Origin: an uncultured Bacilli bacterium
Lineage (GTDB): Bacteria; Bacillota_I; Bacilli_A; RF39; UBA660
Assembly (NCBI GenBank): GCA_934149465.1
Contig: CAKPEZ010000002.1
Coordinates: forward strand, 88,758-152,757
Direction: 5' to 3'
DNA: 64,000 bases
Within the stretch, counting starts at the first letter, position 1. Every line of letters starts with the position of its first letter. Below, in pieces: positions 45,114-50,499 of this stretch. A program made the position numbers and the translations under genes. Under the pieces are notes generated by a model. The model was given only the letters and a program-made list of their open reading frames with translations. It ran no database searches and was not told the DNA's origin.

Positions 45114-46217
45114 ATGGAAAATAAATTTTGTTATAGCAAGTATGCTTGTCTTGATCAAGATGCCTTAAAGTTAAGAAGTGAAAATAAAGACTTTCGCTCT
45201 GTTTACTCAAGAGATGCTGATAAAATATTATTTTCTCTTTCTTATTCTCGTTATATAGATAAAACTCAAGTTTTTTCTTTCCAAGAAAACGATCATATTA
45301 CCAAAAGAATTATTCACGTTTCTTTAGTTAGTAGAATAGCAAGAACAATTGGTCGTAATTTAGGACTTAATGAAGACTTAATAGAAGCTATTTCCCTAGG
45401 GCATGATATAGGCCATGTTCCATTAGGACACTTAGGAGAAAAATTTTTAAATGAAATTAGCTTAAAATATTTAAATGAACGCTTTTTACATAATGTTCAA
45501 AGTGTTAGAAATTTTTTAAATATAGAAAAAGACGGACTTGGATGTAATTTATCTATTCAAGTATTAGATGGTATTCTTTGTCATAATGGAGAAAAAATTT
45601 TAAAAGAATATCATTATCATCCGAAAACTATTCAAGATTTCTTTTCTGATTATGAGAAGTGCTATCAAGAAAAGCAATTACTTACTGATATTGTGCCTAT
45701 GACTTTAGAAGGTGCTGTTGTTAGGATTAGCGATGTTATTGGATATCTAGGAAGAGGTTTAGAAGATGCCATTATTTTAGGAATTTTAAAAAAAGAAGAT
45801 ATTCCCAAAGAAATAAAAAATAACTTAGGAGAAGATAATAAAACAATTATTGATAAAGCAGTAGCGGATATCATTACTAATAGTCAAGATAAAAATTATA
45901 TTACAATGAGTGAAAATATGTACAATTCTTTAAATTTATTAATGAAGTTTAACTACAAAAATATTTATAATAAAGCAAACTCTAGAGAAAAAGTAGAAAA
46001 ATATCAAGAAATGTTTAATACTGTTTTTGAAGAAAATTTAAAATATCTTCAAAATAAAGATTATTCTAAAGATATTTATCAAATATTTCTTAAGAATATG
46101 CACAAAACATATTTAAAAGAAACTAAAGATATGCGAATAGTAATAGATTATATTGCAGGAATGACTGATGATTTCTTTTTTAGGGAATATAAAAAAATAA
46201 TAAATAAAAATGTATAA
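45114..46217 (+). CDS. HD-domain phosphohydrolase, dGTPase (Dgt)-like
   Basis: RIIHVSLVSRIARTIG...GHDIGHVPLGH HD motif. Inserted between era and yqzL/recO. Confidence 0.65.
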   Translation: MENKFCYSKYACLDQDALKLRSENKDFRSVYSRDADKILFSLSYSRYIDKTQVFSFQENDHITKRIIHVSLVSRIARTIGRNLGLNEDLIEAISLGHDIGHVPLGHLGEKFLNEISLKYLNERFLHNVQSVRNFLNIEKDGLGCNLSIQVLDGILCHNGEKILKEYHYHPKTIQDFFSDYEKCYQEKQLLTDIVPMTLEGAVVRISDVIGYLGRGLEDAIILGILKKEDIPKEIKNNLGEDNKTIIDKAVADIITNSQDKNYITMSENMYNSLNLLMKFNYKNIYNKANSREKVEKYQEMFNTVFEENLKYLQNKDYSKDIYQIFLKNMHKTYLKETKDMRIVIDYIAGMTDDFFFREYKKIINKNV

Positions 46218-46356: not shown

Positions 46357-47094
46357 GTGATAAAAAAGGTAGAAGGAGTCATAGTAAAAGAAATTCCTTA
46401 TAAAGAAAGTAGTAAAATTATAACCGTATTTACTAAAGATGATGGTATACTAGGAATATATGCTAAGGGAGTTAGAAAACTAACTAGTAAAATAGGTGCC
46501 AAAGTTAATAAACTTACATATGGATATTTTCATATAAAATATAATGAAAATGGATTATCTTCTTTAATTGATATAGAAATAATAGATCCTTTAAAAAATA
46601 TCAAAAAGGATTTAACTATGATCTGCTATGCAAGTTTTCTATCTGAATTATCTTCTCAAGTTTATCGTCATGATAATAATAAAGAAATATATAATCTTTA
46701 TATAAATAGCATTTTAAAAATTAACTCTGGATATAAGCCTTTAGTAATAAGTAATATTTTAGAATTAAAACTACTTTCATATCTTGGAATAAAGCCTGTA
46801 ATTGATAGCTGTGTAGAATGTGGTGGAAAAGAAGATATTGTAACTTTATCTAGTTATAAAGGAGGATATATCTGTAAGAGGTGCCTTACTAATGAAAAGA
46901 TAGTATTATCTAAAACAATAAAACTAATTAGAATGTTTTATTATGTTGATATTTCTAAAATAAGCAATATTTCTATTAGTGATGAAGTAGAAAATGAAAT
47001 AAATAGTTTTATTGATGATTACTATGAAAGATATAGTGGGCTATATTTAAAGAGTAAAGAATTTCTAAGAAATATTAATGAGCTTCAAACGTAG
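46357..47094 (+). CDS. recO: DNA repair protein RecO
   Basis: N-terminal OB fold (EGVIVKEIPYKESSKIITVFT) and C-terminal 4-Cys zinc motif CVECGG...CKRC. Confidence 0.8.
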   Translation: MIKKVEGVIVKEIPYKESSKIITVFTKDDGILGIYAKGVRKLTSKIGAKVNKLTYGYFHIKYNENGLSSLIDIEIIDPLKNIKKDLTMICYASFLSELSSQVYRHDNNKEIYNLYINSILKINSGYKPLVISNILELKLLSYLGIKPVIDSCVECGGKEDIVTLSSYKGGYICKRCLTNEKIVLSKTIKLIRMFYYVDISKISNISISDEVENEINSFIDDYYERYSGLYLKSKEFLRNINELQT

Positions 47095-47157
47095 AAGTTC
47101 ATTTTTGACTTTAAAAATAAGAGATGCTATGAAGATGCTTAAAGGAGGAATGTATTT

Positions 47158-47940
47158 ATGAAAATAACACTTGATACTAATATTAAAAAATTATCATTTT
47201 TTCAAAATAGAGAAGCTTTATGTATGATGTTTTATAAAAATGGAATTATTAGTCTTAGAGATCTTCTTTTAGCCGATCAAGAAACATTGTTAAGAATACG
47301 TAATTTTGGTCCTAAATCGCTTTTTGAATTAAAAGAGATGTGCAATGATTTAGAAAATACTTATCATTTTAGTAATGATCTTGAATTAAAAAAAGCTAGA
47401 GAATTGAGAAGTAAGATAACGTTAGATATGCCTATTTATAAGTTAGATATTTTTAAGAAGAATTCATATTATAAAAGCATCGGATTATCTTTAATGGAAA
47501 ATGATATTATTACGTTAGAAGACTTATTAAAAAGTACTGATGCTAGTATTATAAATGCTTCTAGATTAACAGACTTAGCTTTAACAGAAATAAAAAAATA
47601 TTTAACTTCTTTACAAGATGAGTATCATTTTTCTTTTTCTAAAGAAAAATTGTCTTTAGATACTAAAATATCTTCAATAAATGAGTTATTGCCTCTTGGA
47701 GCAGTTATTCGTAATTTAGAATCTCATAATATTATTACTATTTCTGATTTAATAGACGCTAATGATGAAGAGGTTTTAAAAGCTCGTAATGTTGGTAAAA
47801 AGAAATTATTAAAAATAAAAGAAATATTAGAAGAAGTTATAAATTCTATTCCAGTAGAATCAAAAGAAAATTCTGGAAAAAAATTGATTTTTACATTGAA
47901 AGAAATAGAACAAGAAAAACAGTTCACTAAAAGAAAATAA
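47158..47940 (+). CDS. Protein made of three tandem RNA-polymerase alpha C-terminal-domain (alphaCTD)-like HhH modules
   Basis: Three repeats resembling alphaCTD (LSVRSANCLKNAGI-TIGDLV...EELLKIPNLGKKSLEEIKEKL). Repeat 1 is LSFFQNREALCMMFYKNGIISLRDLLLADQETLLRIRNFGPKSLFELKEMC. Repeats 2 and 3 are similar. Confidence 0.55.
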   Translation: MKITLDTNIKKLSFFQNREALCMMFYKNGIISLRDLLLADQETLLRIRNFGPKSLFELKEMCNDLENTYHFSNDLELKKARELRSKITLDMPIYKLDIFKKNSYYKSIGLSLMENDIITLEDLLKSTDASIINASRLTDLALTEIKKYLTSLQDEYHFSFSKEKLSLDTKISSINELLPLGAVIRNLESHNIITISDLIDANDEEVLKARNVGKKKLLKIKEILEEVINSIPVESKENSGKKLIFTLKEIEQEKQFTKRK

Positions 47941-47967
47941 ATACATATATTTTAGTGGTGATGCTTT

Positions 47968-48186
47968 TTGAGTGAGAAAATATCTATTGATAAAGGAATA
48001 TTAAGATTAAATAAAAAAATTTATTCCGGAATATTACTTAGTAGCGCTTCTTATACAACTATATGCAGTTATGCTTTAATAAAGGAGCCATCTTTATATT
48101 TAGGATTACTCTTTTCATTTGGCATGGTTACTTCTTTATCAAGTACTTATTTACTAATAAAAACTAAAAAAAGACTTTTAAGATAG
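47968..48186 (+). CDS. Small hypothetical membrane protein
   Basis: 72 aa with two hydrophobic segments. No RBS evident. Confidence 0.3.
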   Translation: MSEKISIDKGILRLNKKIYSGILLSSASYTTICSYALIKEPSLYLGLLFSFGMVTSLSSTYLLIKTKKRLLR

Positions 48187-48224
48187 GTCTTTTTTTGTTA
48201 TAATTGACGGTAGGACGTGAAAAT

Positions 48225-49403
48225 ATGGATAAAATAATTTTAATAAAATATGGAGAATTAACTACTAAAAAAGATAATCGTAATTTATTTGTTAATATAT
48301 TATATAATAACGTTAAAGATAAACTATCTAAATATGATGTCAAAATAAAAAAAGATAGAGTAAGAATGTTTATTGAATCAGCAAATGATGATATTGATAA
48401 AATTGCTGAAGATCTTAAAGAAGTATTTGGAATTCATCGTATAGTAATATGCGAAAAAGTAAATACTAATATCGATGAAATAAAAGAATTAGTACTTAAA
48501 ACTTTTAAAGAAAAAGATATTAAGACTTTTAAAATTGAAACAAAACGCAGTGATAAAGATTTTCCATATCACAGCATGGAAATAAATAATATATTAGGTG
48601 GACTTATTTTAAAGAATATTCCTAATATAAAAGTTGATGTTCATAATCCAGAATATCTTTTAAAAATAGAAATAAGAAAAGATTATACTTATATATATAC
48701 AAAAGAACTATCTGGAATAGGAGGATATCCTGTTGGTGTTCAAGGGAAAGGCTTAGTAATGTTATCTGGTGGAATAGACTCTCCAGTCTCTGCTTATCTT
48801 GCAATGAAAAGAGGAATAAAAATTGAATGTATTTATTTTGAATCTCCTCCCCATACTAGCTTGCAAGCTAAAAATAAAGTTATTAAATTAGTTCAAACTT
48901 TAACTAAATATCAAAAAGATATAAAACTTCATATTATTAATTTTACTGCTATGCAAGAACTTATTTATAGCAAAATGGATCCTACTTATATGATAACCAT
49001 TATGCGAAGAATGATGTATAGAATAAGTGAGAGTATTGCTAAGAGAAATAAAGATTTAATTATTATAAATGGAGAAAGCGTAGGACAAGTAGCAAGTCAA
49101 ACATTAAATAGCATGAAAGTAATTAATTCAGTTACTAATTATCCTATTTTAAGACCAGTAGCGTGTCTTGATAAATTAGAAATAATCGCTTTAGCTAAAA
49201 AGATCGGGACTTATGAAACGTCTATTTTACCTTATGAAGATTGCTGTACTATCTTTGTCCCTAAACATCCAGTAATTAATCCTAAGTTAGAAAGAGCAGT
49301 TTTTTTAGAAGAAAACACTTTATATCAAGATACTTTAAATGAATGTGTAGAAAGTGCTTCTTATGAAGTAATTTCATATAAAGCAAGCAAAAATTTATTT
49401 TAA
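48225..49403 (+). CDS. thiI: tRNA 4-thiouridine synthase ThiI (THUMP + PP-loop)
   Basis: PP-loop SGGIDSPV. Start at MDKIILIKYGE. Confidence 0.85.
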   Translation: MDKIILIKYGELTTKKDNRNLFVNILYNNVKDKLSKYDVKIKKDRVRMFIESANDDIDKIAEDLKEVFGIHRIVICEKVNTNIDEIKELVLKTFKEKDIKTFKIETKRSDKDFPYHSMEINNILGGLILKNIPNIKVDVHNPEYLLKIEIRKDYTYIYTKELSGIGGYPVGVQGKGLVMLSGGIDSPVSAYLAMKRGIKIECIYFESPPHTSLQAKNKVIKLVQTLTKYQKDIKLHIINFTAMQELIYSKMDPTYMITIMRRMMYRISESIAKRNKDLIIINGESVGQVASQTLNSMKVINSVTNYPILRPVACLDKLEIIALAKKIGTYETSILPYEDCCTIFVPKHPVINPKLERAVFLEENTLYQDTLNECVESASYEVISYKASKNLF

Positions 49404-49484
49404 CAAAAATTACCAATAAAAAAGTAGTATGATATTTCATTATTATCACACTCTATGAATGTAGGAGGTGAGAATAATGAACGG

Positions 49485-49683
49485 TTCAAATAATAAGATG
49501 GTAGTACCTGGTTCTAAACAAGCTATCGAAAGAATGAAATATGAGATCGCTAATGAATTCGGAGTTAATTTAGGTCCTGATACAACTGCAAGAGCAAACG
49601 GATCAGTTGGTGGTGAAATAACTAAACGTTTAGTTAAGTTAGGAGAAAACCAAATTAGTGGTGGAAATTACCAAGCTAAATAA
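49485..49683 (+). CDS. Alpha/beta-type small acid-soluble spore protein
   Basis: [40 protein letters not shown] is the canonical SASP signature. ATG at 49485 follows a GGAGGTGAG RBS. Confidence 0.8.
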
Positions 49684-49959: not shown

Positions 49960-50499
49960 GTGGACAATAAGAAATTATTTGGAGCAATTATTGGAGTAAT
50001 CGCATTCATTGCAGTCATCGCTGGAGCAACTTATGCTTGGTTTACATGGACATCTTCTCCAACAACTGTTGGAGGTACAACTGGATGCTTTGATATCGTT
50101 TATGCGAAAGGAACTGATATTAGTGGATCATTAGTTCCATCATCTAATTATACTGGTGGAAAATCTACTTCAGTTACTATTAATATTGATCCAAAGTGTA
50201 CAATCACTGGTAAGGCTACTTTAAAATTAACTACTAATGCTACTGCGACTGCTACTGCTATTCCTTTAACAGCTGGAGCTGTTAAATGGGCTGTGTATAA
50301 AAGTGGTGCAACTGATGCACTTGCAACTGGTACAGTAACTGCTACTGGTACTATTGATTTAGCTCAAGTTGATTTAACTACAACTGCTACTACTTATGAT
50401 TTTTACGTATGGCTTGATGGAACAATTGCTGACAACACTTATGTTGGTAAGACTTATTCTGGTTCTATTAGTGCTACTGCGACTCAAAATGCTAGTTAA
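49960..50499 (+). CDS. Secreted/anchored Thr-Ala-Gly-rich protein with TasA/SipW-cognate-like N-terminus (paralog 1)
   Basis: GTG start 8 nt after an AGGAGG RBS. N-terminal hydrophobic segment ending GATYAWFTW (compare TasA GGTWAAF). Low-complexity T/A/G-rich body. DFYVWLDG motif shared with paralogs 2 and 3. Confidence 0.5.
   Translation: MDNKKLFGAIIGVIAFIAVIAGATYAWFTWTSSPTTVGGTTGCFDIVYAKGTDISGSLVPSSNYTGGKSTSVTINIDPKCTITGKATLKLTTNATATATAIPLTAGAVKWAVYKSGATDALATGTVTATGTIDLAQVDLTTTATTYDFYVWLDGTIADNTYVGKTYSGSISATATQNAS

What the first reader, a model, noticed from the sequence alone, without database searches (positions are those of the whole stretch)
47158..47940. Standalone protein of three tandem RNA polymerase alphaCTD-like domains between recO and thiI
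Each about 80-aa repeat matches the alpha-subunit C-terminal HhH domain that contacts UP elements and activators (for example LSFFQNREALCMMFYKNGIISLRDLLLADQETLLRIRNFGPKSLFELKEMC). A free triple-alphaCTD protein could compete with RNAP alpha for UP elements or activators, or tether DNA.
Basis: partly seen in the sequence, partly recalled or inferred. Interest (0 to 1): 0.5.

Follow-up and report, generated by a model that had tools for sequence, protein, structure and literature searches.

The report
Free-standing triple alpha-CTD-like protein, species-specific
An uncultured gut bacterium carries a small, recently gained gene whose protein is three copies in a row of the DNA-contacting tail domain of RNA polymerase's alpha subunit, without the rest of that subunit; the domain call is solid, but its function is only inferred.

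Summary
Window 47158-47940 (+) is an intact 260-aa ORF with a strong ribosome-binding site. It encodes three ~80-aa repeats that are significantly similar to one another. The protein passes Pfam PF03118 (RNA_pol_A_CTD): 56.7 bits against a cut-off of 23.8. Repeats 1 and 3 pass alone; repeat 2 is degenerate (13.8 bits).

The protein has no alpha N-terminal domain, so it is not an RNA polymerase subunit. It is also not a known repair HhH protein.

It is a species-restricted orphan. Among 1.84 billion representative proteins, only distant multi-alpha-CTD repeat proteins match. The closest sister genomes keep identical synteny but go straight from recO to a small membrane gene and thiI. The gene is therefore a single-gene insertion of about 830 bp, and it shows raised pN/pS.

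DNA-contact residues are largely kept in repeat 1, partly in repeat 3 and lost in repeat 2. Activator-contact surfaces are not conserved.

The most likely role is multivalent binding of AT-rich DNA. The UP-element competitor or decoy idea is untested.

The parts
47158..47940 (+). ORF of the triple alpha-CTD-like protein (260 aa)
   Evidence: Fifteen population alleles are all 260 aa.
47158..47367 (+). Repeat 1 (aa 1-70), the best-preserved alpha-CTD-like module. R18 is the plausible equivalent of E. coli R265; N49-F-G51-P-K53-S54 corresponds to N294-L-G296-K-K298-S299.
   Evidence: PF03118 29.1 bits. HMMER alignment to C. crescentus alpha-CTD 9zum_A. pLDDT about 81-89.
47368..47415 (+). Linker 1 (aa 71-86): basic, partly helical, low confidence
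   Evidence: pLDDT 61-66; net charge +2
47416..47628 (+). Repeat 2 (aa 87-157), a degenerate module. Helix 1 is about 5 residues longer, and the HhH hairpin is replaced (R-L-T-D-L-A in place of N-x-G-x-K-S).
   Evidence: PF03118 13.8 bits, below the cut-off. No PDB alpha-CTD hit on its own. Homologous to R1 at E 4e-12. Same helix pattern, pLDDT 83-93.
47656..47847 (+). Repeat 3 (aa 167-230). N211-V-G213-K-K215-K216 is kept; the R265 position is A182 and the N268 position is R185.
   Evidence: PF03118 31.2 bits. Alignments to 9zum_A and 7xya_A. pLDDT 87-94.
47848..47937 (+). C-terminal basic helical tail (aa 231-260)
   Evidence: helices 233-259 at pLDDT 56-70; net charge +3
47141..47148 (+). 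Shine-Dalgarno sequence AAAGGAGG
   Evidence: sequence
47077..47103 (+). Terminator-like hairpin plus T-run at the end of recO. It is followed by TTGACT (47105-47110), a 17-nt spacer and TATGAA (47128-47133), a weak promoter-like site.
   Evidence: Consensus matches only; function not shown.
47112..47944 (+). Approximate extent of the single-gene insertion relative to the sister genomes
   Evidence: Alignment with L093 and L095, where the recO stop is followed 47-44 nt later by the small membrane gene. The boundaries are approximate.
47968..48186 (+). Neighbouring small membrane ORF (72 aa, TTG start). It is conserved in the sister genomes and is not part of the insertion.
   Evidence: blastp 2.5e-10 and 2.9e-05 to the 70/81-aa ORFs of L095/L093. 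Three synonymous and no non-synonymous differences within the species.

Best explanation
The gene encodes a soluble 'beads-on-a-string' protein: three alpha-CTD-like helix-hairpin-helix modules joined by flexible linkers. It lacks the alpha N-terminal assembly domain, so it is not an RNA polymerase subunit.

The gene entered this one lineage of uncultured, low-GC gut Bacilli as a single-gene insertion between recO and a small membrane gene. It is evolving faster than its housekeeping neighbours.

Inferred mechanism:
- Repeats 1 and 3 keep the minor-groove-contacting hairpin (N-x-G-x-K-S/K), and repeat 1 also keeps an Arg at the start of helix 1. They would bind A/T-rich duplex DNA weakly and with little sequence specificity, as alpha-CTD does at UP elements.
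- Repeat 2 has lost these residues and would serve as a spacer or a protein-contact module.
- Two DNA-binding modules about 150 residues apart could clamp two A-tracts, or bridge DNA, in a genome that is about 75% A+T. Any effect on transcription would come from occupying promoter-upstream DNA rather than from mimicking alpha towards activators.

Status of each step:
- Shown: the ORF, the repeats, the family and fold assignment, the absence of the alpha N-terminal domain, the restricted distribution and the insertion.
- Inferred: DNA binding, multivalency, and any effect on transcription.
For: - Domain identity: PF03118 56.7 bits against a 23.8 cut-off, three stretches; R1 29.1 and R3 31.2 bits alone. 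All PDB sequence hits with E<0.05 are RNAP alpha chains.
- DNA-contact residues: R18/C22/N49/G51/K53/S54 in R1 align with R265/C269/N294/G296/K298/S299. N211/G213/K215 in R3 also align. R265, N294 and K298 are reported as the UP-element minor-groove contacts (PMC5101437).
- Not RpoA: NCBIfam rpoA models score 22-46 bits against cut-offs of 228-523, and they match only the CTD region.
- Real gene: strong SD sequence; 15 alleles, all 260 aa, with mostly conservative changes.
- Insertion: sister loci L093/L094/L095 (RecO 70% identical) have the same gene order but lack the gene. Eighty more distant relatives have no alpha-CTD-repeat ORF within ±10 kb of era-recO.
- Orphan status: an exhaustive phmmer search of 1.84e9 representatives gave only 29 hits at E<1e-3. 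Apart from a fragment of the same gene, all are distant multi-repeat proteins at ≤40% identity.
Against: - There are no experimental or expression data of any kind.
- The Arg equivalent to R265, the single most important UP-element contact, is present only in R1, and only if a 2-residue insertion in helix 1 is accepted. MAFFT places it slightly differently.
- The modules are not basic: net charge is +1, -3 and -2, and the whole protein is +2. Genuine alpha-CTDs are also acidic.
- Within-species pN/pS of 0.29-0.96, against 0.02-0.16 for era, HD, recO and thiI, could mean weak constraint, which fits a dispensable gene. The counts are small, and two of the compared alleles were picked because they were divergent.
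Confidence: 0.4

Rival explanations
1. Evolutionarily young, weakly constrained orphan gene with little or no cellular role. An alpha-CTD-repeat cassette was picked up by horizontal transfer and is drifting.
For: - Present in one species cluster only and absent from sister genomes with identical synteny.
- pN is the highest among the neighbours apart from cdd, which equals it in one comparison; pN/pS is 0.29-0.96.
- The central repeat is degenerate.
Against: - The ORF is intact and 260 aa in all 15 alleles examined, from many independent metagenomes, with no frameshifts or stop codons.
- It has a strong SD sequence.
- All three modules, including the degenerate one, are predicted to fold confidently.
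- The least biased comparison (L001) still gives pN/pS 0.29, below 1.
Confidence: 0.2
2. Protein-level decoy or adaptor. The modules mimic alpha-CTD towards proteins that normally dock on it (activators, Spx-like regulators, sigma region 4), and so titrate or relocate them.
For: - The fold and family match alpha-CTD.
- In other organisms, related tandem alpha-CTD proteins are fused to, or adjacent to, Sigma70_r4 domains (P0037, P0047, the neighbour in L088). This links the wider class to promoter-recognition machinery.
Against: - Known partner-contact residues are not conserved in any repeat. Positions equivalent to E. coli D259/E261 are K/S in R1, and T285-E288 become D-Q-E-T. The position of B. 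subtilis Y263 is Ala or Ile (alignments; the residue roles are from established literature and were not tested here).
- This protein has no sigma-r4 domain.
Confidence: 0.15
3. SAM-like protein-protein scaffold unrelated to transcription or DNA, for example one that oligomerises or organises a complex.
Confidence: 0.12
4. Mobile-element or phage-derived factor (anti-host or defence-related) that landed in the chromosome.
For: - It is a single-gene insertion at a slot that holds different lineage-specific genes in different relatives.
- Phages encode small 'RNA polymerase alpha subunit C-terminal domain-containing proteins' with a similar predicted fold.
- A lineage-specific dGTPase-like gene, which matches a PADLOC model at 5e-50, lies two genes upstream.
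- pN/pS is raised.
Against: - No tblastn match in 50,697 phage records or 72,556 plasmids.
- PHROGs hits are marginal (best E 3.6e-4, function unknown).
- No PADLOC family matches X.
- There is no integrase, no target-site duplication and no terminal repeat beyond chance.
- GC content matches the host.
Confidence: 0.08
5. A generic HhH domain of a known repair or recombination protein (RuvA, ComEA, PolX, Rad51-type) that has been mislabelled as alpha-CTD.
For: HHH_5 scores 32 bits and RAD51D_N 28 bits, marginally above their cut-offs for the whole protein. Rad51/Dmc1 N-terminal domains and PolX appear among the fold matches. The gene lies next to recO.
Against: - PF03118 scores far higher (56.7 bits). 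The individual repeats are below the cut-off for HHH_5 and RAD51D_N but above it for PF03118.
- All PDB sequence hits at E<0.05 are alpha subunits.
- There is no catalytic or other repair domain in the 260 aa.
- The adjacency to recO is not conserved, because the gene is absent in the sister genomes.
Confidence: 0.02

Closest known systems
C-terminal domain of bacterial RNA polymerase alpha subunit (Pfam PF03118; e.g. PDB 1z3e_B B. subtilis, 3k4g E. coli, 9zum C. crescentus bound to AT-rich DNA)
   Different: There is no alpha N-terminal domain and no linker to RNAP. There are three copies in one chain. The helix-1 segment is 2-5 residues longer. The R265 equivalent is missing in repeats 2 and 3. 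The activator and sigma contact surfaces are not conserved. Only the second half of the Pfam profile aligns.
Uncharacterised free-standing tandem alpha-CTD repeat proteins in metagenomes (P0017-P0047: 2-12 PF03118 copies, some with Sigma70_r4), and phage 'RNA polymerase alpha subunit C-terminal domain-containing proteins'
   Same: Several PF03118 modules at a period of about 80 aa, without the alpha N-terminal domain. The '(I/L)(T/S)LDTxIxxL' cap that precedes each module is shared with P0023, P0024, P0027 and P0030.
   Different: There is no orthology: the best hit is 34% identical (E 6e-16). This protein is much more divergent from the alpha-CTD consensus, scoring 57 bits for 3 modules against 119-154 bits for 3-4 modules in the others. 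It has no sigma-r4 domain, no adjacent paralogue and no signal peptide. I found no functional study of any member.
NCBIfam NF005841 / PRK07758 (95-aa single alpha-CTD-like hypothetical protein)
   Same: A standalone alpha-CTD-like domain protein. Weak match: E 3e-6, 27.5 bits.
   Different: The score is far below that family's cut-off (115 bits). PRK07758 has one domain, not three.
Other SAM-like/(HhH)2 modules: NusA AR1/AR2, Rad51/Dmc1 N-terminal domain, tandem SAM domains; tandem HhH arrays such as topoisomerase V (the last from my own knowledge, not tested)
   Different: Sequence identity is only 8-17%. Their Pfam families are not the best match for this protein.

Membership tests
Pfam PF03118 RNA_pol_A_CTD (domain family) | Profile HMM score above the curated gathering threshold | tested here: met
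   Whole protein 56.7 bits against 23.8, E 1.9e-15, 3 stretches. R1 29.1 and R3 31.2 bits alone; R2 13.8 bits, below the cut-off.
Pfam PF03118 RNA_pol_A_CTD (domain family) | Compact helical alpha-CTD fold containing the HhH | tested here: met
Pfam PF03118 RNA_pol_A_CTD (domain family) | DNA (UP-element) contact residues: E. coli R265, N268, C269, N294, G296, K298, S299 | tested here: inconclusive
   R1: R18, C22, N49, G51, K53 and S54 are kept, and N268 becomes L21, given a 2-residue insertion. R3: N211, G213 and K215 are kept; R265 becomes A182, N268 becomes R185 and S299 becomes K216. R2: none are kept. Binding itself was not tested.
RpoA, RNA polymerase alpha subunit | N-terminal dimerisation and assembly domain (PF01000/PF01193) followed by a linker and one CTD | tested here: not met
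   No such Pfam hit. NCBIfam rpoA equivalogs score 22-46 bits against cut-offs of 228-523 and cover only the CTD columns.
Functional alpha-CTD mimic towards regulators | Conservation of partner-contact surfaces (E. coli 261 and 287 determinants; B. subtilis Y263 for Spx) | tested here: not met
   Aligned positions differ in all three repeats. The roles of these residues come from the literature and my own knowledge.
Generic HhH repair/recombination domains (PF14520 HHH_5, PF21794 RAD51D_N) | Best-scoring family, with the individual domain above its cut-off | tested here: not met
   HHH_5 scores 32.0 (cut-off 27) and RAD51D_N 28.0 (cut-off 27.3) for the whole protein, both well below PF03118. 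Per repeat: 16.5 and 18.1 bits for HHH_5, 23.7 for RAD51D_N, all below their cut-offs.
Free-standing tandem alpha-CTD repeat proteins (uncharacterised architecture class) | Two or more PF03118 modules in one chain without the alpha N-terminal domain | tested here: met
   Three modules. Comparable proteins have 2-12 modules. This is an architecture class, not a demonstrated orthologous family.
Anti-phage defence or phage protein families | Match to PADLOC or PHROGs models, or to phage/plasmid records | tested here: not met
   PADLOC: no family for this protein beyond E 0.008. PHROGs: best E 3.6e-4, unknown function. tblastn against phages and plasmids: no match.

The most novel reading that the evidence does not exclude
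This protein, and the wider unstudied set of free-standing tandem alpha-CTD proteins (2-12 copies, some fused to sigma region 4, some in adjacent paralogue pairs), may form a class of RNAP-independent readers of promoter-upstream A/T-rich DNA. Such trans-acting factors would occupy UP-element-like sites, or bridge them, and so tune transcription. The copy here would be a recently acquired, fast-evolving example in a reduced-genome gut bacterium.

A more extreme version, not excluded because the species' own rpoA could not be retrieved, is that the protein supplies alpha-CTD function in trans.
Probability: 0.12. Interest if true: 0.7.

Novelty: new variant of a known kind. Interest (0 to 1): 0.4.

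Why it matters
Alpha-CTD is the textbook module through which RNA polymerase reads UP elements and receives activators. It is normally thought of only as part of the alpha subunit. A free protein made of nothing but alpha-CTD-like modules could compete with, or add to, that read-out.

The searches here show that such proteins exist sporadically across metagenomes, with up to 12 modules and sometimes fused to sigma region 4, and no functional study turned up. This particular copy is a clean natural example of a recent single-gene gain, with sister genomes that lack it, which makes it a usable test case.

The practical limits are real. The host is uncultured, the protein is divergent, and nothing about its function has been demonstrated.

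Tried and rejected
- Single-sequence AlphaFold gave pLDDT 34 and was unusable. It was replaced by a run with a 19-sequence alignment.
- The word-indexed homologue search with the protein and with the profile returned almost nothing beyond the species' own cluster.
- Five literature searches (PF03118, RNA_pol_A_CTD, 'alpha CTD-like', paralog/homolog/repeat phrases) found no paper on free-standing or tandem alpha-CTD proteins. The phrase matching of 'alphaCTD' spellings is imperfect, so this absence is weak evidence.
- tblastn against phage and plasmid collections: no match.
- PHROGs gave marginal hits only. PADLOC gave nothing for this protein.
The afdb50 fold library was unavailable.
- Rfam and tRNA scans of the whole window found nothing, so there is no riboswitch or leader to explain regulation.
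- The search for target-site duplications or terminal inverted repeats around the insertion found only short A/T-rich matches at chance level. These include a 10-nt perfect inverted repeat that brackets the ORF (47150-47159 / 47937-47946), one of several such 10-mers in 1.1 kb.
- The promoter scan found fewer sites than the shuffled controls (21 against 26.4), so it is uninformative.
- Rejected ideas: an RNAP subunit paralogue (no N-terminal domain); a known repair HhH protein (family ranking); functional linkage to recO (adjacency not conserved).

Full report
**1. The observation**

AAAGGAGG lies at 47141-47148, nine bases before the start codon. The window is about 25% G+C throughout, and the gene (about 23%) does not stand out.

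The upstream gene is recO and the next large downstream gene is thiI, by Pfam hits on the identical genes of locus L001.

**2. Three alpha-CTD-like repeats**

Pfam gives PF03118 RNA_pol_A_CTD at E 1.9e-15, 56.7 bits (cut-off 23.8), in three stretches. HHH_5 (32 bits) and RAD51D_N (28 bits) come next.

Scanned as separate thirds:
- Repeat 1: 29.1 bits.
- Repeat 3: 31.2 bits.
- Repeat 2: 13.8 bits, below the cut-off.

Only profile positions 28-67 of 67, the HhH half, are aligned.

The repeats are significantly similar to one another:
- R1-R2: 32% over 74 aa, E 4e-12, z 14.8 against shuffles.
- R1-R3: 30% over 66 aa, z 13.9.
- R2-R3: 31% over 39 aa, z 5.2.

The homology of repeat 2 therefore rests on repeat 1. 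On its own it finds no alpha-CTD in the PDB. For the whole protein and for repeat 1, every PDB sequence hit with E<0.05 is an RNA polymerase alpha chain.

NCBIfam rpoA models match only their C-terminal columns and score 22-46 bits against cut-offs of 228-523. There is no alpha N-terminal domain, so the protein is not an RNAP alpha subunit.

**3. Structure**

A single-sequence AlphaFold run failed (pLDDT 34). A run using a 19-sequence alignment of distant multi-repeat relatives (A2) gave mean pLDDT 80.3. It shows three modules at about 85-94, linkers (aa 71-90 and 157-172) at 43-66, and pTM 0.41. This is three independently folded modules with no fixed mutual arrangement. Each module has the same succession of helices.

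- Foldseek's domain-level hits are alpha-CTDs, with TM normalised to target of 0.60-0.77.

**4. Functional residues**

R265, N294 and K298 of E. coli alpha-CTD are reported to contact the minor groove of A/T-rich UP elements (PMC5101437). The extended '265 determinant' (N268, C269, G296, S299) is from my own knowledge.

- Repeat 1: HMMER aligns R18-E-A-L-C22 with R-S-A-N-C of the C. crescentus CTD, with a two-residue insertion in helix 1, and N49-F-G51-P-K53-S54 with N-F-G-R-K-S.
- Repeat 3: R185-N-L aligns with N-C-L, which puts A182 at the R265 position. N211-V-G213-K-K215-K216 aligns with N-F-G-R-K-S.
- Repeat 2: the hairpin reads R-L-T-D-L-A, and helix 1 is about five residues longer.

Repeat 1 is therefore largely competent on paper, repeat 3 partly, and repeat 2 not at all.

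Positions equivalent to the E. coli 261 and 287 determinants, and to B. subtilis Y263 (the Spx contact, from my own knowledge), are not conserved in any repeat. Net charge is +2 overall; the modules are +1, -3 and -2, and the linkers and tail are basic.

**5. Distribution**

The word-indexed search found a single 90% cluster of 41 sequences, plus a fragment. Fifteen alleles are all 260 aa, with 18 variable and mostly conservative positions. The samples include human-gut (Hadza) metagenomes.

Exhaustive phmmer against 1.84 billion cluster representatives found only 29 proteins at E<1e-3. Apart from the fragment, the best is 34% identical (E 6e-16). All are proteins with 2-12 alpha-CTD-like modules.

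An Era-anchored scan of GTDB representative genomes returned 80 loci from uncultured gut 'Bacilli', formerly labelled Tenericutes, such as Clostridium sp. CAG:433, Ca. Coprovivens and Ca. Coprosoma (Era 58-69% identical). None has an alpha-CTD-repeat ORF within ±10 kb.

The decisive comparison used RecO. Its nearest non-conspecific homologues are 70% identical. Their contigs L093/L094 and L095 have the same order, VanZ-ybeY-dgkA-cdd-era-HD-recO-(small ORF)-thiI-SASP, but lack the gene. The small ORF there (81 or 70 aa) is the homologue of the window's 72-aa ORF (blastp 2.9e-05 and 2.5e-10).

The alignment of the junctions shows that the sister recO-to-small-ORF spacer is split in the window by about 830 bp (about 47112-47944). 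This segment carries only this gene and its SD sequence. More distant relatives hold unrelated genes at the same slot: a PAP2-like gene in L061, and unrelated 238- and 244-aa ORFs in L010 and L096.

I found no transposon hallmarks, no phage or plasmid match and no defence-family match.

The three repeats are only about 30% identical to each other, whereas the host has diverged from its sisters by only about 30% in RecO. I therefore infer that the gene arrived already triplicated, rather than being built in place from rpoA. This is an inference and could not be tested without the host's rpoA.

**6. Constraint**

Against four other alleles, X shows pN 0.0095-0.019 and pN/pS 0.29-0.96. For era, HD, recO and thiI, pN/pS is 0.00-0.16 in the same comparisons. 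The counts are small (6-12 non-synonymous, 3-6 synonymous). Two of the alleles were chosen because they were divergent, which inflates pN. The less biased comparison (L001) gives 0.29.

The gene is therefore kept intact but evolves faster at the protein level than its neighbours.

**7. Transcription signals**

These are consensus matches only.
- A terminator-like hairpin with a T-run closes recO (47077-47103).
- TTGACT-17-TATGAA follows at 47105-47133.
- After the small ORF there is a weak A/T-rich hairpin (about 48166-48196), followed by TGTTATAAT (48196-48204) ahead of the thiI ATG at 48225.

The gene and the small ORF may therefore form their own unit, but the promoter scan as a whole is no better than shuffled sequence.

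**8. The wider class**

The distant hits show that free-standing tandem alpha-CTD proteins are a real but unstudied architecture.
- P0018 has 11-12 modules (PF03118, 452 bits).
- P0017, P0027, P0030 and P0037 have 3-4 modules.
- P0037, P0047 and the neighbour of P0030 carry Sigma70_r4 hits.
- P0023 and P0030 each sit next to a second alpha-CTD-repeat gene.
- P0042, P0044 and P0045 look like alpha subunits with a duplicated CTD.
- Phage proteins annotated 'RNA polymerase alpha subunit C-terminal domain-containing protein' appear among the BFVD fold matches.

The protein here shares the '(I/L)(T/S)LDTxIxxL' cap before each module with P0023, P0024, P0027 and P0030. It is the most divergent of these from the alpha-CTD consensus (57 bits for three modules).

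**9. Verdict**

The gene is a species-specific gain. The proposed function is only partly supported.

Multivalent, low-specificity binding of A/T-rich DNA through repeats 1 and 3 is my preferred mechanism (confidence about 0.4). The rivals are a drifting orphan gene, a protein decoy, a SAM-like scaffold, and a mobile-element factor.

I rate it a new variant of a known kind, of moderate interest.

Noticed in passing
window 47968-48186 (+): An unannotated 72-aa ORF (TTG start) that reads by eye as having two hydrophobic segments. The gene caller missed it on L001. It is conserved as 70/81-aa ORFs at the same position in sister genomes L095 and L093 (blastp 2.5e-10 and 2.9e-05). Within the species it shows 3 synonymous and no non-synonymous differences. 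It has no Pfam family. It is probably a real small membrane protein gene.
   Followed up: partly
window 47158-47193, compared with L093 5689-5724 and L095 5137-5172: The first 12 codons of the alpha-CTD-repeat gene (MKITLDTNIKKL) resemble the first 12 codons of the sister species' small membrane gene (MKLKLDKGTLKL). About 24 of 36 nt match, and MAFFT aligned them. This could be chance in A/T-rich, Lys/Leu-rich starts, or a footprint of how the insertion happened.
   Followed up: no
window 45114-46217 (+): An HD-domain, dGTPase-like gene (PF01966 + PF13286) that also matches the PADLOC 'dGTPase' defence model at E 5e-50. It sits between era and recO only in this species and its closest sisters (L093-L095). 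In the recO-bearing loci among the 80 more distant relatives, recO lies about 10-630 nt downstream of era with no room for this gene (one exception, L052, at about 3.5 kb).
   Followed up: partly
loci L087 and L088; proteins P0017-P0047: A diverse, apparently unstudied set of proteins with 2-12 tandem PF03118 modules. Some carry Sigma70_r4. Some have N-terminal hydrophobic, signal-like segments (P0017, P0018). Some occur as adjacent paralogue pairs. Some are alpha-subunit-like proteins with a duplicated CTD (P0042, P0044, P0045).
   Followed up: partly
window 49468-49683 (+) and 49960-50499 (+): An alpha/beta-type SASP gene (PF00269 on the L001 copy) in a small-genome gut Bacilli lineage, which suggests spore-former ancestry. 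It is followed by a 179-aa Thr/Ala-rich ORF with an N-terminal hydrophobic segment and no Pfam hit. The position of that ORF is shifted by an indel in L001.
   Followed up: no
recO-downstream slot in L010, L061, L096: The position just after recO holds a different lineage-specific gene in each relative: an unrelated 238-aa ORF, a PAP2-like 139-aa membrane protein (by eye), and an unrelated 244-aa ORF. None of the two tested has a Pfam hit. The slot looks like a hot spot for gene turnover.
   Followed up: partly
window 1-64000: No tRNA gene and no Rfam family at gathering threshold anywhere in the 64 kb. Nearly all large ORFs are on the + strand and GC skew is positive throughout, consistent with one replichore's leading strand.
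   Followed up: no
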